Positions 22,975-35,358 of a stretch of DNA of 44,708 bases are shown here, in pieces. Where the stretch lies: sequence record MF807953, one strand, 5' to 3'. Numbering within the stretch: position 1 is the first letter of the stretch; every line of letters starts with the position of its first letter. The stretch comes from Escherichia phage Ayreon. The translations under genes were made by a program, and so were the position numbers. The notes beneath the pieces were generated by a model. It worked only from the letters and a program-made list of their open reading frames with translations, made no database searches and was not told where the DNA came from.

Positions 22975-23118
22975 CAGACTGTTGTTGAGCTGGAGATCGC
23001 AACGGAGGAAGAAACCTCATTGCTGGAAGCCTGGAAAAAGTATCGGGTGTTGCTGAACCGTGTTGATACATCAACTGCACCTGATATTGAGTGGCCTACG
23101 AACCCTGTCAGGGAGTAA
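22975..23118 (+). pseudogene. tfa: 3' remnant of tail fibre assembly gene tfa
   Basis: In-frame translation immediately after the stf stop reads ...[45 protein letters not shown], which resembles the C-terminus of lambda-type Tfa; there is no start codon and no N-terminal part. Confidence 0.6.
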
Positions 23119-23642
23119 TCATTGGGATTATGCCGCAGCACGTCGTATGCAAGAACGTGCTGCGGTTGGATGCTATTTTTTCCCTGAAGCGGAAAACATT
23201 ACTACAGTTATGACGATGAATTACAAGGGGTTAAATGATGCCACGGCATAGCGATATTGAAATAGCCTGGCATGCTTCAATACAGTGGGAACCGAATGGC
23301 CGGAAGACCGTCACCACACAGCGGTTTGTCTAGGGACTGAGCAATGTTCACAGGTACTGGGCTATGAGAGCTGTTAATAAACTGATAAATACGGCAACAC
23401 CACTTAGGTCAGCGTAGCCGGTAAATCGAAAAGCAACTTCATCCAGGAATTTCTGTCAGTGTTGTTTGGAGATCTGATTGCCATGATGGATCAAGAGTTC
23501 TCTCTTATTGCCGGCTTGGTGTTGACTGAAAACTGGTATGATGCCGGGCGCATGTTGGCTAATCATTGGGAATACTGCCGACACTGAACCATTCGCTCTT
23601 TTGATTTGGGGCGGTGCGACATAGCATGTAGGGAGTAAATCA

Positions 23643-24146
23643 ATGACTGAATTTCTTGGAAAACTGTTCGACAGGGTTTATACGGAGAAGGATTTCGGCA
23701 TTAATGTCGCCATATTTGTCGCGGGACTTGCCGGAATGAGCTGTTATCTGATCCTTCACGACTATGTCCTGACGCTGTTCGCATTTATTATTCCATTCCC
23801 GATCGTCAAGATCATTGCCGGAGGATGGCATCAGCGTCTTCTTGCCCAGAAAGGAAAAGCTGCTTCAAGGCAGCAGTTGGCCGCACTTTATGATTCACTT
23901 ACGGACAGTGAAAAAAACGTGGTACAGCACTTTGTAGCATTCGGCGGTGCTGTGATGACATGGGGACAAATGAACCGGCTTGATGATCCGCAAACTGGTG
24001 TGGAGTCCCTGGTTCGGAAGGGATTACTGGGTACCTCCGTGTCCGTGGATGGAATGCACGAGACCTTCGAGCTGGATCTGACGCTTTTTGCCTTTGCTTA
24101 CCGTTGGCGAGCCTCTCAGAATACGGACTCTGCGGCAGAGGGTTAA
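23643..24146 (+). CDS. Small membrane protein, possible superinfection exclusion protein (SieB-like)
   Basis: 167 aa with two N-terminal hydrophobic helices (VAIFVAGLAGMSCYLIL and LTLFAFIIPFPIVKIIAGGW) and a soluble C-terminal domain; located in the accessory region between tail fibre and int; ends at a bidirectional terminator. Confidence 0.45.
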   Translation: MTEFLGKLFDRVYTEKDFGINVAIFVAGLAGMSCYLILHDYVLTLFAFIIPFPIVKIIAGGWHQRLLAQKGKAASRQQLAALYDSLTDSEKNVVQHFVAFGGAVMTWGQMNRLDDPQTGVESLVRKGLLGTSVSVDGMHETFELDLTLFAFAYRWRASQNTDSAAEG

Positions 24147-24267
24147 GGCGTACGTGAGGTATCCGGAGATGCTAAAAGCGCGGAACTCATTAATCCTCGC
24201 CCTAAGGGAAATACGTTCTTTCAGAATGGTGGTCAACTGTTCTGCCGAAAGTGTAAAAGGATGGTAA

Positions 24268-24297
24268 TAAAAAACCCGGCTTTGCCGGGTTTTTTTA
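24268..24297. terminator. Bidirectional rho-independent terminator
   Basis: Hairpin cccggc-ttt-gccggg flanked by an A-run upstream and a T7 run downstream; serves convergent genes on both strands. Confidence 0.75.
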
Positions 24298-24299
24298 CT

Positions 24300-24428
24300 T
24301 TATGCAGCTTTTCGATTCATAGCCTTTAGTTCTTGATCGATAAACGTTTGAATTTCTTTGATTTTATCAACGTTTTTGATGGCTTCTCGCAACAGCGCAA
24401 TGCGGCGTGCTTCAATTTTATTCATCAT
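24300..24428 (-). CDS. Small basic helical protein (42 aa), hypothetical
   Basis: Minus-strand ORF MMNKIEARRIALLREAIKNVDKIKEIQTFIDQELKAMNRKAA, not in the supplied ORF track; AGGAG ribosome-binding site 7 nt upstream of the ATG; its stop abuts the bidirectional terminator. Confidence 0.45.
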   Translation of the reverse strand: MMNKIEARRIALLREAIKNVDKIKEIQTFIDQELKAMNRKAA

Positions 24429-24481
24429 ATTGGCTCCTGACTTACCTAGCTAGGTAAAACTCACTTTTTAAGTTGACTAAG

Positions 24482-24844
24482 TTAAACGAATGCCATTGCT
24501 GATAAGCGGTTGGCTCCGTCTTGAATACTGTCGTTATCGCCACGCTCGATCGCTTCTGCGACTTGGCGCATTAAAAGCACTGCTTGGCGGGCATTTGCCA
24601 TAACTCTTTCATCGTCCCAAACACCGACTTGAAGCAACTTCGTAATGATATCTGCAGTGGCGTCAGAAAGATCGGCAATTTCAGCGAATGACGGGTTAAA
24701 GTCGCGTAGTTGCTCAACCGATTTTGCGTTTACATGTTTCACAAACCATGCAGAGACTTCTTGGATTTTCCAGTACAACTCTAAAGCTAAATCATTACTG
24801 TTAACATTAGCAGCACTATAAATACTAGCAACGTTTGAGTTCAT
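24482..24844 (-). CDS. Hypothetical protein (120 aa), AT-rich accessory gene
   Basis: 120-aa minus-strand ORF in visibly AT-rich DNA, directly upstream (same strand) of the 42-aa ORF; I recognise no family. Confidence 0.5.
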   Translation of the reverse strand: MNSNVASIYSAANVNSNDLALELYWKIQEVSAWFVKHVNAKSVEQLRDFNPSFAEIADLSDATADIITKLLQVGVWDDERVMANARQAVLLMRQVAEAIERGDNDSIQDGANRLSAMAFV

Positions 24845-24966
24845 TGTTTGTTCGTTTCCAGCTGGTACCCATAAATTGGGACAAATCCTAGCTTATTGGA
24901 AAATTTTTATCCACAGTATTTGGTGTTTAATGAATATGGGGCTTAAAGAACAAATTTTCAACTGCT

Positions 24967-24996
24967 TTGAGCGATTATATTGAAAGGCGGTATAAT
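24967..24996 (+). promoter_or_regulatory. Candidate sigma70 promoter (TTGAGC - 18 bp - TATAAT)
   Basis: Perfect -10 TATAAT at 24991-24996 with a -35-like TTGAGC; no CDS follows, and a 16-bp GC palindrome lies about 65 nt downstream. Confidence 0.35.
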
Positions 24997-25140
24997 TTTA
25001 TGTCAACTAGTATAGCAATAAGAAGTAAAAATTCACTTAAAGTCATAATATTTCAGTAGGGAGCCGCGGCTCCCTTGCGTATCTTTTTGTCACTTCACCG
25101 TCTGGTCGGTGTCCTGCTGAGACCTCTAACATCCTGTTTT

Positions 25141-25613
25141 TGTTTGTGTTGTACACCGCCCAATCAACAGTGTCAATAGAACAAAGATTGCTGCATGTAC
25201 AAATGTTCTTTGGCTACAAATACACCTACTGATCATGTTCTGCTATGCTCTGATACCTCCAAAATGTACAATCAGCGGCATGAATTTTTCTTTGTACATA
25301 TGATTGTACATAATCAAAGAGACAGCAATTATGACAAGCCTTTTGGCCGCAGAGGTAGCGAAAAGAAGAACCTTTGCCATTATTTCTCACCCCAATAATT
25401 AAGCCAAAATTAAAGCTCTTTTACTCTTTCAAAATCCTTTCAGTTAATTGAGGTTGAGCCATATAACTCATTTAAATACATTTAGTTATGTGGCTTCTTT
25501 AATTGAAAATTCTTTCATGTAACTTTAAATCGATCTGCTTGCTTTCATCAAAAATCTGTACATGTGCTTGTACATAATGTACAAAACAGCAGAGGTGTTT
25601 TTTTATTTGTACA
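25141..25613. promoter_or_regulatory. Array of nine TGTACA motifs upstream of int (candidate protein-binding / att arm region)
   Basis: TGTACA occurs at 25141, 25187, 25256, 25284, 25296, 25557, 25569, 25578 and 25608 within about 470 bp, including the repeated unit TTGTACATAAT, in AT-rich non-coding DNA ending at the int start. Confidence 0.5.
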
Positions 25614-25622
25614 AGGTGAGTA

Positions 25623-26840
25623 ATGGCGCTGTCTGATGCGTGGTTGCGTTCAGTCGTTGGAAAGGAACGTGATAAGGTTTTGGTTAAATCCGATCGTGAT
25701 GGTCTGTCTGTCAGAGTATCACCGAAAGGTCGCGTAGTGTTCCAATATCGTTATCAATGGGCAGGGAAAGGTGAGCGCCTTGATATCGGAACTTACCCGG
25801 CAACTGGATTAAAAGAGGCCAGAGAAGAAGTTATCCGTCTCCGTGGTGAACTCGAGTCAAACCGCAATCCACGATTAGTCAGGCAGGCTGAAAAACGAAA
25901 AGCTACTGAAGCCATGACGGTAGAGTCTGTGATCCGTGCCTGGTATGAAGCATATTGTGTAAAAAATAAAAAAGGTTCTGAACAGATACTCCGCTCGTTT
26001 GAGCTGCACCTGTTCTCTAAAATCGGGAATATCCCTCACGATGCAGCTACATTGCATGATTGGTTAGAAGTCCTGGAGCCTCTTAGCACTAAGACTCCAG
26101 CAATAGCAGACCGATTGCTAATTAACGCAAAGCAGGCCCATGTCTGGGCGTATAAGAGAAAGCTCATTGAAACTCGCCCACTGTCGGATATCACGGGTAA
26201 AGATATGGATATCCGTAAAGGTCAGAAGAAACGGTTTCTGACACATGATGAAATTAAAATCCTTTATGCTGCGATCGATGGTTCTCGAATGGTTCCTAAA
26301 TACCGGGCCTTCATTAAACTATTGCTGCATTTTGGCTGCCGTAGTTCAGAGCTAATTACCGCCAGGGTGGACGATTTTGATTTCATTAATAAAGTATGGA
26401 CTGTACCACCAGAACGACATAAGACTGGGGAGATAACAGGCGAACCGCTAAAGCGGCCCATTATTGAACCGGTTGAAGAGCTTATAAAGTACGCTATTTC
26501 TATGAACAATGGTTCCGATATGCTTTTTACTAAGGAAGGAAGCAGGGAACCCGTTGGTCGGACATCATTGCAGTCGCTGCCTTACAATTTAATGCAGTAC
26601 GCATGGCGGCGTTTGGGGTATCAATTCCCTCATTGGTCTCTTCATGATTTGAGGCGAACAGCACGAACAAACTTTTCTGATCTTACTGCGCCTCATATTG
26701 CAGAAATAATGCTAGGTCATAAACTGCCAGGGGTATGGCAGGTTTATGACAAGAGCGATTATTTAGATGAACAGCGTAAAGCTTACCAGGCATGGTGGGA
26801 GAGAGTTGAATCGATAGTTACTTGTACTTGTTCAGACTAG
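25623..26840 (+). CDS. int: Tyrosine integrase (P4-type, with N-terminal arm-binding domain)
   Basis: 405 aa; N-terminal region typical of the P4-like integrase arm-binding domain (LSDAWLRS..GLSVRVSPKG..FQYRY); catalytic-domain features RSSEL, HDLRRTART and terminal Tyr region VYDKSDY. Confidence 0.9.
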   Translation: MALSDAWLRSVVGKERDKVLVKSDRDGLSVRVSPKGRVVFQYRYQWAGKGERLDIGTYPATGLKEAREEVIRLRGELESNRNPRLVRQAEKRKATEAMTVESVIRAWYEAYCVKNKKGSEQILRSFELHLFSKIGNIPHDAATLHDWLEVLEPLSTKTPAIADRLLINAKQAHVWAYKRKLIETRPLSDITGKDMDIRKGQKKRFLTHDEIKILYAAIDGSRMVPKYRAFIKLLLHFGCRSSELITARVDDFDFINKVWTVPPERHKTGEITGEPLKRPIIEPVEELIKYAISMNNGSDMLFTKEGSREPVGRTSLQSLPYNLMQYAWRRLGYQFPHWSLHDLRRTARTNFSDLTAPHIAEIMLGHKLPGVWQVYDKSDYLDEQRKAYQAWWERVESIVTCTCSD

Positions 26841-26973
26841 AACTGACATTTTGCATAGGCAGAACGCAATTATGCATATTGCGGTATAATCCCCTTCTTA
26901 AAACTGTAAGAACTGCTTGCTAATCCTTGCAGTTTTTGATTATAACATTTTTATTTGTTTATTAGGATTTTTG

Positions 26974-29106
26974 ATGGAACTGTTACAGGAACACGGGGCG
27001 ATACTTAAAGTTGTAATCATGCCTACTACTGGGGAACAAACCATAATCCAAGGTTTCGATACTGGCCTCCTCAACCCAGAGATATCCAACATTCTTTTTT
27101 TATTGGCCAAAACACCAAAAGAAATTAGTGAGATTTTTGTCAATGAAAATGATAACTTTCAGCCTACTCTAAGCGGGCTAAATCCTATTTTTTTAATATC
27201 TAAAGAAAATCTTGAAAAAATACCAGATATTTATCAAACGCCATTTTGCTTAATTTTTTGTGCTAAAGAAGATTTTTCGTATTTTTGTGCTTTAAAAAAA
27301 CATTTTGCTATACCACCTATAATTTGTTGCAATTCTAAACGCGCTGATCTACCACTTAATAAGATTAATAGTATATACTCATTTGATAAGGTGCTCTTCT
27401 CTCGGTTGAAATTCATTGAGGATAAAATAAGAAAAAATCACAGTGAAAAGAAAATATCAACGAAGTTGAAGCGAAGAGGGGCTTTATTTAATAAATCACC
27501 TTGGAGATCGACGCTTAACAATTCAACACTACCCAATGAGTTGTTAATTGAATCACTTGGCTATATGCTATCTCCACCAAAAAGAATTAAAGATGGTAGT
27601 AGCAAAAGAGAGTTTATAGAAATAATACTTCATAGCGTTGATGCATACACCGAATGTTTAAAGGAATTAGATATACCACTTCCAACGGAAGTCTTACTTT
27701 TTGCTCCGGGTATGCACTCTTTTTTATATGATAAAAATAATGACTTTTATGAGTTAATAACGGAAAATTTATCCACAATTGAGAAAAAATTCCTTATTGA
27801 TGGAGTGTTGAGGAATCCAGGCTATTCTGGAATTAGACTTGATATAAATTCAGATAGAAAAGAACTTTTTAAAAGTCCTGCTTTCCGTTACCTCACCTCA
27901 CTAAGACGAGCTGAAATGCGATTAACAACAGCTGCGATTACTTTATTTAGCATAAATAAAAAAATCCCAGCAATAAGATTGCCAAATGCAATAAATCATT
28001 ACTCCAATTATTTGAAAAATCTTGAAGATCTTGCAACTTCTTCTGGGATAAATAGTGAAGCATTCATCACTAAATCTAAAGCATTCAATACTGTTATTCG
28101 AAGAGCCCTTGGTTGCAAGTTGAGAACATATATAAGTAAAAACTATAGCGATTTGTCCTTTGTTTGTGATGTACCATTGGATTGGATTAGGTTTAATAAC
28201 ATACCTATAATGTTCAGTCATGAGATATCAAGAATAAATGCTACGCCTGGTAACGTTCTTCTACAGAGCGCCTCTGCTTTTCCGCGCGTTTTAGTAAAAG
28301 CATCTGAGTTGAGAAAGGTTTTAGTTATACGTTCTTTTGAGCCTGATGATCACTTAAAGTTCATATTAGAGAACGCAATTGAGATATTTAAAAAACAGAT
28401 GCCAGATCTTGATTGCGAGATTATTGATGTTAGATCGAAAGCTGAGTTTATTGATGCTCTAAATCAATATCAAGGTCATATTCTTGTTATGGATTGTCAT
28501 GGAAACCATGATGGCAATGGGAGTCATGGATGGTTAATAATAGGTGAGGATAAAGTGGACACTTGGAGTTTGAGAAAAATAGCAAGAATTCCTCCTATCG
28601 TAATTCTGAGTGCATGTTTAACATCTGCCCTAAGTGGTTCTCATGCCTCTGTTGCTAATGGCTTCGTTATAAGTGGTGCATTAAGTGTCATCGGAACATT
28701 ACTGCCTGTAAATGCGATAGACTCTGCTGTTTTTGTAAGTCGGTTGATCTACCGGTTTTACGAGTTTCCTTCGACGCTATCTACAAATTTTACACATGTT
28801 AATGTAAGGCTTTTTCTTTCTGTTTTTCTTAGGATGTCCTATGCAAGCGATTTAATAAGAGGATTTTTATCTGAAGATTTGATACCGAATAATTCATGGA
28901 AGAAAGATGCAGTTGATATTAACATGTATATAAACATGCTTCACCATGATTGGTATGATTATGTAATTAACAAATTGACGATGTTAACGGGGCTCACGAA
29001 AAAAGATGTACTTGATTTTATCGATAGAAAATTATTCATAACCGAAACTATGTGCTATAGCCAAATTGGATTTCCAGATGCAATCACAATTAGTCTTAAA
29101 GATTGA
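26974..29106 (+). CDS. Large cargo protein with C-terminal CHAT/caspase-like protease domain
   Basis: 711 aa from MELLQEHG. Strikingly low GC with Asn/Lys/Ile-rich composition. The C-terminal region has a caspase-fold His/Cys dyad signature: strand plus HG in ILVMDCHGNHDG and strand plus Cys in PIVILSACLTS, followed by GFVISGALSVIGTLLPVNAIDSAVFVSRLIYRFY, typical of CHAT domains. The N-terminal ~500 aa have no features I recognise. Confidence 0.65.
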   Translation: MELLQEHGAILKVVIMPTTGEQTIIQGFDTGLLNPEISNILFLLAKTPKEISEIFVNENDNFQPTLSGLNPIFLISKENLEKIPDIYQTPFCLIFCAKEDFSYFCALKKHFAIPPIICCNSKRADLPLNKINSIYSFDKVLFSRLKFIEDKIRKNHSEKKISTKLKRRGALFNKSPWRSTLNNSTLPNELLIESLGYMLSPPKRIKDGSSKREFIEIILHSVDAYTECLKELDIPLPTEVLLFAPGMHSFLYDKNNDFYELITENLSTIEKKFLIDGVLRNPGYSGIRLDINSDRKELFKSPAFRYLTSLRRAEMRLTTAAITLFSINKKIPAIRLPNAINHYSNYLKNLEDLATSSGINSEAFITKSKAFNTVIRRALGCKLRTYISKNYSDLSFVCDVPLDWIRFNNIPIMFSHEISRINATPGNVLLQSASAFPRVLVKASELRKVLVIRSFEPDDHLKFILENAIEIFKKQMPDLDCEIIDVRSKAEFIDALNQYQGHILVMDCHGNHDGNGSHGWLIIGEDKVDTWSLRKIARIPPIVILSACLTSALSGSHASVANGFVISGALSVIGTLLPVNAIDSAVFVSRLIYRFYEFPSTLSTNFTHVNVRLFLSVFLRMSYASDLIRGFLSEDLIPNNSWKKDAVDINMYINMLHHDWYDYVINKLTMLTGLTKKDVLDFIDRKLFITETMCYSQIGFPDAITISLKD

Positions 29107-33961: not shown

Positions 33962-34525
33962 ATGAGGCTAACCGTGGGTAAGTATCACTGGAAAGTAGAA
34001 AAACAGCCTGAGTGGTACGTGAAAGCTGTCAGAAAAACTATCGCAGCGTTGCCGGGTGGTTACGCTGAAGCAGCTGACTGGCTGGATGTAACAGAGAACG
34101 CATTATTTAACCGCCTTCGTGCCGATGGCGATCAGATTTTCCCGCTGGGATGGGCAATGGTTTTACAGCGCGCGGCTGGCACTCACTACATTGCGGATGC
34201 TGTCGCACAGTCTGCTGGTGGGGTGTTCGTATCGCTTCCTGAAATTGAGGAAGTAGAGAACGCCGATATAAACCAGCGCCTGCTGGAAGTCATCGAACAG
34301 ATCGGGAATTACTCAAAGCAGATTCGTTCGGCAATCGAAGATGGGGTCGTGGAGCCACACGAGCAGACAGCAATTAATGATGAGTTGTATCTGTCAATTT
34401 CGAAGCTCCAGGAGCATGCAGCACTGGTCTACAAAATCTTTTGCGCTCCAGAAAAGAGTGACGCCCGCGAGTGTGCAGCTCCGGGCGTCGTGGCGTTTTG
34501 TGTCTGTGGAGAAACTAACGCATGA
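33962..34525 (+). CDS. Early regulatory protein (YdaT/CII-like)
   Basis: 187-aa ORF immediately after cro in the CII position; similarity to the YdaT family is from memory. Confidence 0.45.
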   Translation: MRLTVGKYHWKVEKQPEWYVKAVRKTIAALPGGYAEAADWLDVTENALFNRLRADGDQIFPLGWAMVLQRAAGTHYIADAVAQSAGGVFVSLPEIEEVENADINQRLLEVIEQIGNYSKQIRSAIEDGVVEPHEQTAINDELYLSISKLQEHAALVYKIFCAPEKSDARECAAPGVVAFCVCGETNA

Positions 34526-35358
34526 ACAGTTTAACGGCAAATAACCGTTTGTCGCAACAGCTGGTGGTCAGCGTCGCTGAACACCTGTTGTTACGGCATG
34601 AATGCAGATTACCAAATCACCTGGCTGTAAGTAACCACAGAGAACTTTACCTGACTGTGGGGGGCGAGTTGTGCAAGAACTTAACCGCTGGTTTCGTGAC
34701 GGAAGAGGGCTTTATGTCCATGTTATTCGTTGGGAGCCAGAAACACAGCGCGTTATCTATCTTCGCAAAGACTACCCGCATGAGTGCTTTAGTCCTTTGT
34801 GGAAATTCAGGCGTGATTTTGTTGAGTGTGAAGGACCACCAGCACATTGATTCTGCCATTCCGGGACGTTACACTGTTCAGGCACCTTATAAAGCGGGTG
34901 TCGGGATTGGCGTCCTGGAATTGCATACGGCGACAATTGGCGCGTTAGCGTCTTTTTTGTTGCTACAACTCAGCTATACCCAAATTATGGTGGGCTGGGT
35001 GGGGGCACCGAAAGGTGCGCCGGTTTCCGTATGCGCCGGTTACGCCAACCCTGCTCAGTTCACCACCAGCGAAATTGGCGTTTCCGGTGGTGGAAGTTAT
35101 CCATTGCATACGGAGGCTGCCATCATGGCTACTGTCCCAGCCCTCTCTCGTCTGAATGATGAAGACTTACATAAACTCAGTTATGTAACAACTGCACTAC
35201 GTGCTCTGCGCAAGGTAACTCTTTCGGATCCGCAGGCGCATCAGGTTTTGGTAGAAACCCTTCTTAACTTGCAGGCTGAACGTATTCGTCTGGCGGATAA
35301 GGCTAATTTTCATATTCACCGTCTCCTGAATATCAGCGGAGGGCATCGTCATGCTTAA
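34522..35358 (+). CDS. Hypothetical early protein (278 aa)
   Basis: ORF overlapping the upstream stop; no Walker motifs seen. Confidence 0.5.
   Translation: MNSLTANNRLSQQLVVSVAEHLLLRHECRLPNHLAVSNHRELYLTVGGELCKNLTAGFVTEEGFMSMLFVGSQKHSALSIFAKTTRMSALVLCGNSGVILLSVKDHQHIDSAIPGRYTVQAPYKAGVGIGVLELHTATIGALASFLLLQLSYTQIMVGWVGAPKGAPVSVCAGYANPAQFTTSEIGVSGGGSYPLHTEAAIMATVPALSRLNDEDLHKLSYVTTALRALRKVTLSDPQAHQVLVETLLNLQAERIRLADKANFHIHRLLNISGGHRHA

What the first reader, a model, noticed from the sequence alone, without database searches (positions are those of the whole stretch)
24967..25090. Orphan promoter followed by a 16-bp GC-rich perfect palindrome in AT-rich DNA: candidate small RNA or binding site
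A perfect -10 (TATAAT, 24991-24996) with a plausible -35 faces a stretch with no ORF. About 65 nt downstream lies the perfect palindrome gggagccgcggctccc (25059-25074), followed a few bases later by a T-rich run (atcttttt). This could define a short non-coding transcript, or the palindrome could be a protein-binding site near the attachment region.
Basis: seen in the sequence. Interest (0 to 1): 0.35.

Follow-up and report, generated by a model that had tools for sequence, protein, structure and literature searches.

The report
Fossil tmRNA-gene attachment arm in phage
The GC-rich palindrome is the last hairpin of a decayed copy of the DNA that normally follows the bacterial tmRNA gene (ssrA), most likely left from a former ssrA attachment site in a lambda-like phage that now integrates at prfC. 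The nearby 'promoter' is no better than a chance match, so this is an evolutionary scar, not a new small-RNA gene.

Summary

The two features do not belong together. The palindrome is the left end of a 108-bp block (25059-25166). That block is 84-88% identical to the DNA directly 3' of ssrA (tmRNA) in 4192 of 5426 E. coli genomes and in 18 Enterobacterales species. It also sits beside the ssrA attP of phages LLS and phiNP.

In its native setting the block lies between the tmRNA 3' end and the first terminator.

Sibling prophages at prfC keep the full arrangement: palindrome, trailer, ssrA 3' fragment, dinI, then the prfC attP. The window has lost 433 bp (the ssrA fragment and dinI), the distal terminator and the loop of hairpin 1. 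Its only integrase belongs to the prfC-type module.

The promoter-like site is at chance level. It occurs only in 39 near-identical prophages and is absent from every relative.

Verdict: a vestigial ssrA-type attachment arm. It is ordinary phage mosaicism, with a side lead that the ssrA trailer may be an unannotated structured RNA.

The parts
24967..24996 (+). Sigma-70-like hexamers TTGAGC-18 nt-TATAAT (the 'orphan promoter'). Judged a chance-level match in an AT-rich spacer.
   Evidence: 10/12 matches, but counts equal shuffles, with P = 0.24 for at least one such site in the intergenic region; this DNA occurs only in 39 E. coli genomes, all at least 99.5% identical. It is absent from cdtI, LLS, phiNP and L148.
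24845..25058 (.). AT-rich spacer specific to this prophage lineage. It lies upstream of the minus-strand 120-aa ORF (24844..24482) and holds a minus-strand promoter-like site (24961..24933, TTGAAA-17-CATATT) back to back with the + strand one.
25059..25074 (-). 16-bp palindrome. It corresponds to hairpin H3 (family consensus GGAGCCGCGGCTCC) of the ssrA 3' trailer.
   Evidence: Searches show conservation. One search gives pair counts: GC 36 / GU 13 for pair 104-117, and CG 46 / UA 2 for pair 108-113 (the compensated variant GGAGTCGCGACTCC).
25059..25166 (-). Fossil of the ssrA (tmRNA gene) 3' trailer, the left arm of an ssrA-type attP. The sense strand is the window's minus strand.
   Evidence: 84-88% identity to DNA directly 3' of ssrA in 4192 of 5426 E. 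coli genomes. Present in 18 Enterobacterales species. Present in phages LLS and phiNP next to an ssrA fragment or attP. Degraded here: 12 deviations at columns at least 95% conserved, and 3 of 7 GGA motifs kept.
25096..25111 (-). Inner hairpin of H2 (CACCG-ACCAGA-CGGTG on the ssrA-sense strand), the most conserved core of the trailer. It is intact in the window.
   Evidence: four of its five pairs never vary in the 49 sequences; the fifth (64-79) is C-G in 43 and unpaired in 6.
25146..25159 (-). Remnant of hairpin H1. The conserved loop (A-GGAC) has been lost through a 4-nt deletion, which by accident creates a TGTACA at 25150-25155.
   Evidence: Alignments.
25166..25167 (.). Deletion junction. 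Sibling prophages carry 433 bp more here: a degenerate ssrA 3' fragment, the dinI terminator hairpin, and a dinI-like gene with a LexA box.
   Evidence: L146. (L148) shows the intact form with the full 23-nt ssrA 3' end.
25167..25620 (.). prfC-type attP module shared with phages cdtI, 2H10 and Stx1a/Stx2c phages. TGTACA repeats flank the core and are probably arm-type integrase sites.
   Evidence: 96% identity to cdtI; 9 of the window's 14 TGTACA sites lie in 25150-25613.
25331..25392 (+). Phage-borne surrogate 5' end of prfC ([21 protein letters not shown]). It becomes the start of prfC in lysogens.
   Evidence: in L001 the annotated prfC starts at the position equivalent to window 25331; alignment with the native yjjG-prfC region shows similarity confined to the coding 5' end (near-perfect around the core) and none upstream of the ATG.
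25379..25392 (.). attP core ATTATTTCTCACCC.
   Evidence: a 14-bp 'duplication due to insertion' is annotated in Stx2c phage LC727876 and maps onto the window..
25623..26840 (+). Tyrosine integrase (Arm-DNA-bind_3, Phage_int_M, Phage_integrase domains). It is the only integrase found among the ORFs scanned and is transcribed away from attP.
   Evidence: the other ORFs scanned (six of 264-350 aa, two shorter) are not integrases.

Best explanation
**What it is.** Window 25059-25166 is a vestigial left arm of an ssrA-type phage attachment site.

**How the working form operates.** In the bacterial chromosome, and in ssrA-integrating phages such as LLS and phiNP, this roughly 120-nt segment directly follows the 3' end of the tmRNA gene. 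From sequence, it is predicted to be transcribed from the ssrA promoter as a 3' trailer. It contains three hairpins (H1, H2, and H3, which is the palindrome), followed by a strong intrinsic terminator. A phage that integrates inside the 3' end of ssrA must carry its own copy of the gene's 3' end, trailer and terminator, so that the gene is rebuilt after integration.

**How the window got it.** The window's lambdoid phage has mEp460-like structural genes. I infer that it descends from such a phage but now carries a prfC-type attP and integrase to the right of the old arm. Sibling prophages still show the old site in full: terminator, palindrome, trailer, 23-nt ssrA end, dinI.

**What the window has lost.**
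- 433 bp carrying the ssrA fragment and dinI.
- The distal terminator, replaced at the palindrome's left edge by a moron spacer.
- The loop of H1.

The palindrome is therefore most likely functionless here. The TTGAGC/TATAAT pair to its left is an unrelated, chance-level match in the AT-rich upstream region of a minus-strand moron operon.

**Shown versus inferred.** Shown: homology, native position, covariation, the 433-bp difference from the siblings, and the absence of an ssrA fragment and of a second integrase among the ORFs scanned. Inferred: that the trailer is co-transcribed with ssrA, the direction of the evolutionary steps, and the lack of present function.
For: **Homology of the block**
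- 25060-25165 matches 4192 of 5426 E. coli genomes at about 84-88% identity. The promoter part matches only 39.
- In strain GN05064 the match lies 5 nt from the 3' end of the annotated ssrA.
- In K-12 it lies at the far end of the CP4-57 region, between ypjA and ypjF, next to a degenerate ssrA fragment.
- The same block abuts ssrA in 18 species of Enterobacteriaceae and Erwiniaceae.
- Phage LLS has it next to its annotated tmRNA pseudogene and attP. phiNP has it next to an ssrA 3' fragment.
- About 60 IMG/VR contigs carry it beside ssrA ends.

**Native transcription unit**
- On the ssrA strand, the first terminator-like site after the ssrA promoter comes after the palindrome.

**Structure**
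- H1 covaries: GC 24 / AU 15 at one pair, and UA 17 / AU 16 / CG 13 at another.
- H2 pair 55-83 reads UA 29 / UG 12 / CG 6.
- The palindrome pairs read GC 36 / GU 13 and CG 46 / UA 2.
- 91% of cells are paired, against 30-59% when partners are slid.
- The G-U tally favours the ssrA strand for H2 (outer stem) and H3.

**Sibling prophages**
- L146 is identical over the stretches compared on both sides of the junction and carries 433 extra bp at 25166|25167: TGATTGGTGGGCTGGCGGGAGTTGAA, the dinI terminator and dinI.
- L148 shows the intact block at a prfC prophage end.
- 432 genomes carry the trailer joined to the dinI-terminator piece.

**State of the window copy**
- No ssrA-like 23-mer, even with 3 mismatches allowed.
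- No tmRNA by ARAGORN or Rfam.
- 12 deviations at columns at least 95% conserved.
- 4 of 7 GGA motifs lost.
- Only one integrase, belonging to the cdtI-type prfC module.

**Promoter**
- Chance level and not conserved.
Against: - No expression data exist for this phage, so a real promoter at 24967-24996 cannot be excluded. It is the only site of at least 10/12 on the + strand of the whole window, and it has a perfect -10.
- H3 and the inner H2 hairpin are fully intact in the window. The palindrome is even one base pair longer than the family consensus, which could mean some function is retained.
- The intact block is kept in at least some prfC prophages (seen in L146 and L148). That is surprising for a useless fossil, though it could reflect recent common ancestry.
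- The G-U strand evidence is mixed: H1 and the inner H2 stem slightly favour the other strand.
- The sequences are related, so cell counts are not independent events.
Confidence: 0.8

Rival explanations
1. A promoter at 24967-24996 makes a short + strand non-coding RNA of about 85 nt, which ends at the palindrome hairpin and the T-run.
For: - A perfect -10, a 4/6 -35 and an 18-nt spacer.
- A hairpin followed by a T-rich stretch. The simple scan flags a 5-bp alternative stem at 25065-25079 followed by TATCTTTTT.
- No ORF of at least 60 aa downstream.
Against: - The promoter match is at chance level.
- Promoter and hairpin have different evolutionary histories.
- The predicted RNA is no more stable than shuffles (z = -1.48).
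- The T5 run starts 9 nt after the 16-bp stem.
- G-U patterns in the hairpin favour the other strand.
- No Rfam family matches, even at E <= 1.
Confidence: 0.06
2. The promoter is real and drives the rebuilt prfC gene in lysogens through a leader of about 330 nt. The hairpin and T-run would act as an attenuator or be irrelevant.
For: - The phage supplies the prfC start codon and all upstream DNA in lysogens.
- This is the only site of at least 9/12 on the + strand between the terminator at 24269-24295 and the prfC ATG.
- From general knowledge: the SXT element, which also integrates in the 5' end of prfC, is reported to supply a new promoter and a new 5' coding end.
Against: - Other prfC-integrating phages (cdtI, 2H10, Stx phages, L148) lack this stretch. 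Any phage-borne prfC promoter they share would therefore lie in the shared module, 25167-25330.
- In the long-form sibling, a dinI gene on the opposite strand and its terminator hairpin lie between the promoter and prfC.
- From general knowledge, RF3 is not essential, so a promoter is not required.
Confidence: 0.08
3. The relic still works as RNA on the minus strand. It could be part of a leader for the 120-aa/42-aa moron operon, or a protein-binding element (GGA motifs, CsrA-like binding), transcribed from minus-strand promoter-like sites near 25337 or 25407.
For: - Minus-strand promoter-like sites at 25407..25379 and 25337..25310.
- No terminator between them and the 120-aa ORF, because the relic lacks the distal terminator.
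- H2 inner stem and H3 are intact.
- The native trailer is GGA-rich and weakly resembles RsmZ.
Against: - The window copy has lost 4 of 7 GGA motifs, three of them kept in 45 of 48 relatives, and it has lost the H1 loop.
- Its GGA count equals shuffles (P = 0.69).
- The promoter-like sites are only 9/12 and at chance frequency.
Confidence: 0.05
4. The palindrome is a DNA-binding site for integrase, excisionase or a host factor acting at this phage's attP.
For: It lies about 300 bp from the attP core and is a perfect inverted repeat.
Against: - It is absent from all phages that share this attP and integrase.
- In siblings it lies 433 bp further from the core.
- The repeats that flank the core are a different motif, TGTACA.
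- The palindrome is conserved next to ssrA in genomes with no such phage.
Confidence: 0.01

Closest known systems
attP arms of phages and islands that integrate into the 3' end of tRNA/tmRNA genes (here Escherichia phage LLS, Citrobacter phage phiNP, and CP4-57-type ssrA elements)
   Same: The same conserved block is present (palindrome, H2, H1), and in the same order and orientation relative to an ssrA 3' end in LLS, phiNP, many IMG/VR prophages and sibling prfC prophages. It fits the known principle that the element carries a replacement 3' end for the target gene.
   Different: In the window the ssrA fragment (core), the distal terminator and a cognate integrase are all missing. It cannot act as an attachment site, so it is a fossil and not a working member.
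prfC 5'-end integration with a surrogate 5' end (SXT/R391 ICEs; phage cdtI; Stx1a/Stx2c phages at prfC)
   Same: The window's active attP (25167-25620) is 96% identical to that of cdtI. It carries a replacement prfC start and a core inside the first codons.
   Different: This module starts to the right of the finding. The palindrome and the promoter-like site are not part of it.
Lambda sib/tI retroregulatory hairpin beyond attP
   Same: A hairpin lying just across attP from the integrase gene. In LLS the block is downstream of int across attP.
   Different: In the window the integrase is transcribed away from attP, so no int transcript reaches the hairpin. There is no sequence similarity.
Rho-independent terminators and terminator-ended phage sRNAs
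   Same: A GC-rich perfect stem with T-rich DNA downstream.
   Different: The T-run is 9 nt from the stem. In the native locus a separate, canonical terminator (AAAGCCCGC-loop-GCGGGCTTTTTT) lies next to the palindrome on the ssrA strand.
CsrB/CsrC/RsmZ-type GGA-repeat RNAs
   Same: Native trailers have 7 GGA motifs on the ssrA strand against 1-2 on the other. One sits in the loop of a covarying hairpin. There is a weak PrrB_RsmZ hit (20.4 bits, E = 0.017).
   Different: The score is far below the gathering score of 44 bits. The enrichment is modest (P = 0.002-0.05). There is no experimental link. The window copy keeps only 3 GGA motifs.

Membership tests
ssrA-type attachment-site arm (ssrA 3' trailer block) | Sequence homology to the DNA directly 3' of the tmRNA gene | tested here: met
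   84-88% identity over about 105 nt, E = 1e-25 to 1e-30, in 4192 of 5426 E. coli genomes. The block is adjacent to ssrA in L005 and in 18 species.
ssrA-type attachment-site arm (ssrA 3' trailer block) | Hairpins H1, H2 and H3 in order | tested here: inconclusive
   The inner H2 stem and H3 are intact. The outer H2 stem has 2 of 6 pairs unpaired. The H1 loop is deleted.
ssrA-type attachment-site arm (ssrA 3' trailer block) | Adjacent ssrA 3' fragment containing the crossover core | tested here: not met
   There is no match to TGGTGGAGCTGGCGGGAGTTGAA with up to 3 mismatches, and no tmRNA hit. The fragment is present in siblings L146 and L148.
ssrA-type attachment-site arm (ssrA 3' trailer block) | Distal intrinsic terminator next to the palindrome | tested here: not met
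   Relatives have AAAAAGCCCGC-loop-GCGGGCTTTT about 10 nt from the palindrome. The window has unrelated AT-rich DNA there.
ssrA-type attachment-site arm (ssrA 3' trailer block) | Cognate (ssrA-specific) integrase in the element | tested here: not met
   The only integrase (25623-26840) belongs to the prfC module shared with cdtI. The eight other ORFs scanned are not integrases.
Sigma-70 promoter | -35 and -10 hexamers with a 16-18 nt spacer | tested here: met
   TTGAGC-18-TATAAT, 10/12.
Sigma-70 promoter | Occurrence above chance, or conservation in relatives | tested here: not met
   6 sites in the window against 6.5 in shuffles; P = 0.24 for the intergenic region. The stretch occurs only in 39 genomes, all at least 99.5% identical.
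Sigma-70 promoter | A mapped transcription start | not testable with these tools
   No expression data are available.
Rho-independent terminator (+ strand) | GC-rich stem followed within 0-2 nt by a U-tract | tested here: not met
   For the 16-bp palindrome, 9 nt (TTGCGTATC) separate the stem from T5. Only a weak 5-bp alternative stem with two G-T pairs passes the simple scan.
Lambda sib-type retroregulator | Lies downstream of int, across attP, on the int sense strand | tested here: not met
   int (25623-26840, +) is transcribed away from attP and from the palindrome.
CsrB/RsmZ-type CsrA-binding RNA | Match to the Rfam family at its gathering score | tested here: not met
   There is no hit on the window at E <= 1. 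The native copy scores 20.4 bits against the 44 needed.
CsrB/RsmZ-type CsrA-binding RNA | Multiple GGA motifs, partly in hairpin loops | tested here: inconclusive
   Native trailers have 7 GGA (P = 0.002-0.05 against shuffles), one of them in the H1 loop. The window copy has 3 (P = 0.69).
Arm-type or accessory protein site of the prfC attP | Present in the phages that share the attP-integrase module | tested here: not met
   cdtI, 2H10 and 27 Stx phages match only from about 25162 rightwards.

The most novel reading that the evidence does not exclude
The roughly 120-nt segment between the tmRNA 3' end and its terminator may be an unannotated, functional, structured RNA domain of the ssrA primary transcript in Enterobacterales. 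It contains hairpins H1, H2 and H3 (the palindrome) and about seven GGA motifs. It might act as a processing or stability signal, or as a CsrA-type protein-binding trailer. If so, that would explain why ssrA-integrating phages copy it faithfully, and might explain why the prfC prophages examined (L146, L148) still carry it. The window's palindrome would then be a remnant of a new RNA family rather than of mere spacer DNA.
Probability: 0.15. Interest if true: 0.55.

Novelty: new member of a known kind. Interest (0 to 1): 0.25.

Why it matters
For this window it removes a false lead. There is no evidence for a new phage sRNA gene or regulatory site. The feature is a datable scar showing that a lambdoid phage lineage changed its integration site from ssrA to prfC by module exchange and then lost 433 bp.

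More generally, it shows that old attachment arms can persist inside prophages next to the active site. About 430 E. coli genomes carry the trailer-ssrA fragment joined to a prophage dinI terminator. Such fossils can mislead att-site prediction. In principle they could also be substrates for ssrA-specific integrases of co-resident elements.

The side observation that the ssrA 3' trailer is conserved and covarying across two bacterial families, yet is absent from Rfam, is a testable lead about tmRNA biogenesis.

Tried and rejected
- **Rfam.** A scan of 23000-27000 at E <= 1 and of the whole window at gathering score gave nothing at the finding. The native ssrA flank gave only tmRNA itself and sub-threshold noise.
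- **Folding.** The proposed + strand transcript is not better than shuffles.
- **Small ORFs in the block.** A 34-aa ORF on the + strand, and a basic ORF starting at the ATG after CCA on the ssrA strand, were both rejected. Common variants introduce stops, and the substitutions preserve hairpins rather than codons (sequences).
- **Strand assignment from G-U pairs.** This was only partly decisive. The outer H2 stem and H3 favour the ssrA strand; H1 and the inner H2 stem slightly favour the other.
- **Literature.** Searches for the palindrome sequence, for an ssrA trailer or terminator, and for CsrA-ssrA links found nothing relevant. The 'ssrA' in the CsrA papers is the Salmonella SPI-2 kinase. 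One paper I recalled, on integration at the tmRNA gene, could not be fetched under the PMC id I recalled.
- **Neighbouring ORFs.** Pfam, PHROG and PADLOC searches on the 120-, 167- and 42-aa ORFs gave no usable annotation.
- **prfC promoter.** I looked by eye inside the shared module 25167-25330 and found only weak candidates (about 8/12). The scan at 9/12 or better lists none there.
- **Lambda sib analogy.** Rejected because the integrase is transcribed away from attP.
Full report
**Observation**

- TTGAGC (24967-24972), an 18-nt spacer and TATAAT (24991-24996) score 10/12.
- GGGAGCCGCGGCTCCC is a perfect 16-bp palindrome at 25059-25074.
- 'atcttttt' is at 25081-25088, so the five Ts begin 9 nt after the stem.
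- No ORF of at least 60 aa follows on the + strand.

Statistically the promoter-like site is unremarkable.
- The window holds 6 sites of at least 10/12 on both strands, against 6.5 +/- 2.3 in dinucleotide shuffles.
- 24% of shuffles of the 487-nt intergenic region contain at least one such site.
- A 16-bp palindrome alone is also not exceptional: 2 observed against 0.66 expected.

**Setting**

The window is a lambdoid phage genome in virion order.
- Terminase, head and tail genes are 97% identical to phage mEp460 up to about 23.1 kb.
- Next come small accessory (moron) ORFs, an attachment region, and an integrase at 25623-26840.
- Then follow a BovA-like defence gene, and the immunity, replication, Q and lysis regions.
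- 25162-25620 is 96% identical to phages cdtI and 2H10, and about 90% identical to Stx1a/Stx2c phages.
- The 14-bp insertion duplication annotated in those Stx phages maps to 25379-25392, ATTATTTCTCACCC.
- That core lies inside a short surrogate 5' end of prfC (25331-25392).
- In E. coli lysogens the annotated prfC gene begins with this phage-borne start.
- The native yjjG-prfC upstream region is unrelated to the phage sequence; similarity is confined to the coding 5' end and is near-perfect around the core.

So the active attP is of the prfC type, and the finding lies just to its left.

**What the palindrome belongs to**

Searching 24960-25165 against 5426 complete E. coli genomes split the finding in two.
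- The left part, which carries the promoter-like site, occurs in only 39 genomes.
- 25060-25165 (palindrome plus about 90 bp to its right) matches 4192 genomes at about 84-88% identity.

In strain GN05064 this match ends 5 nt from the 3' end of the annotated tmRNA gene, ssrA. In K-12 it lies at the distal end of the CP4-57 region, between ypjA and ypjF, next to a degenerate ssrA fragment.

A pattern anchored on the block's core and the ssrA end found it in 18 species of Enterobacteriaceae and Erwiniaceae. In almost all of them it has the same layout:
1. intrinsic terminator;
2. GGAGCCGCGGCTCC;
3. an H2 region;
4. CTAACTTCCTGTT;
5. hairpin H1;
6. CCAATCATGAT;
7. the ssrA 3' end.

The block also lies next to the annotated 'tmRNA pseudogene' and attP of phage LLS, and next to an ssrA 3' fragment at the end of the Citrobacter phage phiNP record. 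About 60 IMG/VR prophage contigs have it beside ssrA ends.

**Nature of the block in its native place**

On the ssrA strand, the scan of the GN05064 locus found the ssrA promoter. The first terminator-like site it found was only after the palindrome. The block is therefore predicted to be the 3' trailer of the ssrA primary transcript. This is an inference from sequence, and no expression data were available.

In an alignment of 49 distinct copies, a three-hairpin structure is 91% paired, against 30-59% when partners are slid. It shows compensatory change:
- H1 pair 14-30: GC 24 / AU 15.
- H1 pair 18-26: UA 17 / AU 16 / CG 13.
- H2 pair 55-83: UA 29 / UG 12 / CG 6.
- Palindrome pair 104-117: GC 36 / GU 13.
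- Palindrome pair 108-113: CG 46 / UA 2 (the variant GGAGTCGCGACTCC).

G-U versus A-C counts favour the ssrA strand for the palindrome (15 G-U and 4 mismatches, against 2 and 17) and for the outer H2 stem. H1 and the inner H2 stem lean slightly the other way. The sequences are related, so these counts are not independent events.

Two candidate small ORFs in the block are broken by stop codons in common variants (sequences). No Rfam family covers the block.

**Why a prfC phage has it**

Thirteen of the 39 genomes with this prophage lineage (rows at or above 98.8% identity) carry a longer version. Strain WCHEC035148 (L146) is one of them.
- The sequence is identical over the stretches compared on both sides of the junction, but 433 bp are inserted between window 25166 and 25167.
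- The extra DNA begins TGATTGGTGGGCTGGCGGGAGTTGAA. That is the rest of the trailer and a slightly degenerate last 23 nt of ssrA.
- It continues with a hairpin that terminates a minus-strand dinI-like gene, the gene itself, and its LexA box.
- It then joins the prfC attP exactly as in phage cdtI.

Another prfC prophage (L148) shows the fully intact form: terminator, palindrome, undamaged trailer, perfect 23-nt ssrA end, dinI terminator, dinI, prfC attP, prfC. The trailer-ssrA-fragment-dinI-terminator joint occurs in 432 genomes. The same joint is seen in IMG/VR contigs of ssrA-associated elements.

The order 'trailer, ssrA 3' end, crossover point, phage DNA' is what an ssrA-type attP must look like, as in LLS. 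After integration, the phage copy of the gene's 3' end, trailer and terminator replaces the host's. This follows from the established principle for elements that integrate in tRNA/tmRNA genes.

I therefore read the block as a fossil ssrA-type attP. Its integrase side was replaced by the prfC attP-integrase module. The window is a further-decayed derivative.

**State of the window copy**
- No ssrA-like fragment remains.
- The terminator that flanks the palindrome in all relatives is replaced, exactly at the palindrome's left edge, by lineage-specific AT-rich DNA.
- The H1 loop is deleted, and the outer H2 stem has 2 of 6 pairs unpaired.
- There are 12 deviations at columns that are at least 95% conserved in the other copies.
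- Only 3 of 7 GGA motifs survive; three of the lost ones are kept in 45 of 48 relatives.
- The only integrase belongs to the prfC module.

All of this fits relaxed constraint.

**The promoter-like site**

It sits in a 214-bp AT-rich spacer (24845-25058) upstream of a minus-strand pair of small ORFs: 120 aa at 24844..24482 and 42 aa at 24428..24300. These ORFs end at a strong bidirectional terminator (24269-24295). A minus-strand promoter-like site (24961..24933) lies back to back with it.

The spacer and these ORFs exist only in 39 genomes, all at least 99.5% identical, so comparative evidence is impossible.

The stretch is absent from cdtI, 2H10 and L148, which integrate at prfC, and from LLS and phiNP, which carry the ssrA block. 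If it were the prfC promoter in lysogens, the other prfC phages would lack one. In the long-form sibling, an opposing dinI gene and its terminator lie in between. I cannot exclude that it fires, but nothing supports it.

**Mechanism and rivals**

Most likely (about 0.8): the palindrome does nothing now and is a remnant of the ssrA trailer of a former attachment arm. The hexamers are a chance match or, at most, an undocumented divergent promoter of the moron region.

Rivals:
- A prfC-directed promoter (about 0.08).
- Residual minus-strand RNA function (about 0.05).
- An Int/Xis site (about 0.01).

Each has a simple experimental test, listed under next steps.

**Comparison and novelty**

The closest known things are these:
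- Phage-borne copies of tRNA/tmRNA gene ends in attP. The block is homologous to these, but it is no longer a functional member. Three of five defining features fail in the window and one more (hairpin integrity) is inconclusive.
- prfC-targeting elements that bring a surrogate 5' end (SXT/R391, cdtI). That module is adjacent to the finding, not part of it.

Module exchange of att/int cassettes among lambdoid phages is well known, so I rate this as a new member of a known kind, of low to moderate interest.

The more novel reading not excluded is that the ssrA trailer is itself a functional structured RNA, not yet in Rfam. It is GGA-rich: 7 motifs against 3.0-4.3 expected (P = 0.002-0.05). It also gives a weak RsmZ-like hit of 20.4 bits. 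I give that reading about 0.15.

One caveat applies. Phages move this block between genera; phiNP of Citrobacter carries the Erwinia/Mixta-type variant. Its wide conservation may therefore partly reflect horizontal spread rather than selection.

Noticed in passing
window 25150-25613: Nine of the window's 14 TGTACA hexamers cluster here, five to the left and four to the right of the attP core (25379-25392). They are probably arm-type binding sites of the prfC-type integrase. The one at 25150 was created by the 4-nt deletion in the fossil hairpin H1.
   Followed up: partly
window 25331-25402: The phage carries a surrogate prfC start ([21 protein letters not shown], then NN-stop in the phage form). 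In lysogens it replaces the native N-terminus ([22 protein letters not shown]) and all native upstream DNA. The promoter that drives prfC in lysogens is unknown.
   Followed up: partly
window 26917-29106 (+): The 729-aa protein next to the integrase matches the PADLOC model BovA (PDLC03831, E = 2e-241) and has a weak CHAT-domain hit. It is likely an anti-phage defence cargo gene. cdtI has a gene in the same position.
   Followed up: no
window 34882-35070 (+): Rfam gathering-level hits to isrK (34882-34958, 58.9 bits) and C4 antisense RNA (34983-35070, 80.7 bits). Both fall inside an ORF with an Ash-family domain (34522-35358). This suggests a P1/P7-like c4-type immunity module in a lambdoid phage.
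   Followed up: no
window 24442-24457: A second perfect 16-bp palindrome, TTACCTAGCTAGGTAA, lies between the minus-strand 120-aa and 42-aa ORFs. Its function is unknown.
   Followed up: no
window 24269-24295: A strong bidirectional intrinsic terminator (AAAAAACCCGGC-TTT-GCCGGGTTTTTT) lies between the + strand 167-aa ORF and the minus-strand 42-/120-aa ORFs.
   Followed up: no
window 23000-23164: Sub-threshold Rfam hits to IS009 (76.7 bits against a gathering score of 117, cut by the search start) and CssrB (28.2 bits), just after the tail-fibre gene. Neither was reported in the whole-window gathering scan.
   Followed up: no
L005 3005-3127 (minus strand) and the 48 other copies in alignment A1: The roughly 120-nt segment between the tmRNA 3' end and its terminator is conserved across Enterobacteriaceae and Erwiniaceae. 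It has covarying hairpins, about 7 GGA motifs (one in the H1 loop) and an (ARN)5-like run, AACAAAAACAGGAAG. No Rfam family covers it, and no paper was found on it.
   Followed up: partly
L146 2228-2660; L148 3390-3700: prfC prophages can carry an apparently complete ssrA-type attP (terminator, trailer, 23-nt ssrA end, dinI) in tandem with the active prfC attP. The trailer-ssrA-fragment-dinI-terminator joint is in 432 E. coli genomes. Whether ssrA-specific integrases of other elements can use it was not tested.
   Followed up: partly
L003 2500-2642 (phiNP) compared with L131, L139, L140, L142, L144: The Citrobacter rodentium phage phiNP carries the trailer variant typical of Erwinia/Mixta chromosomes (GTCCCGCTACCG...CCTGTCTAAAGTGGTGG). 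This indicates that phages move the block between genera.
   Followed up: no
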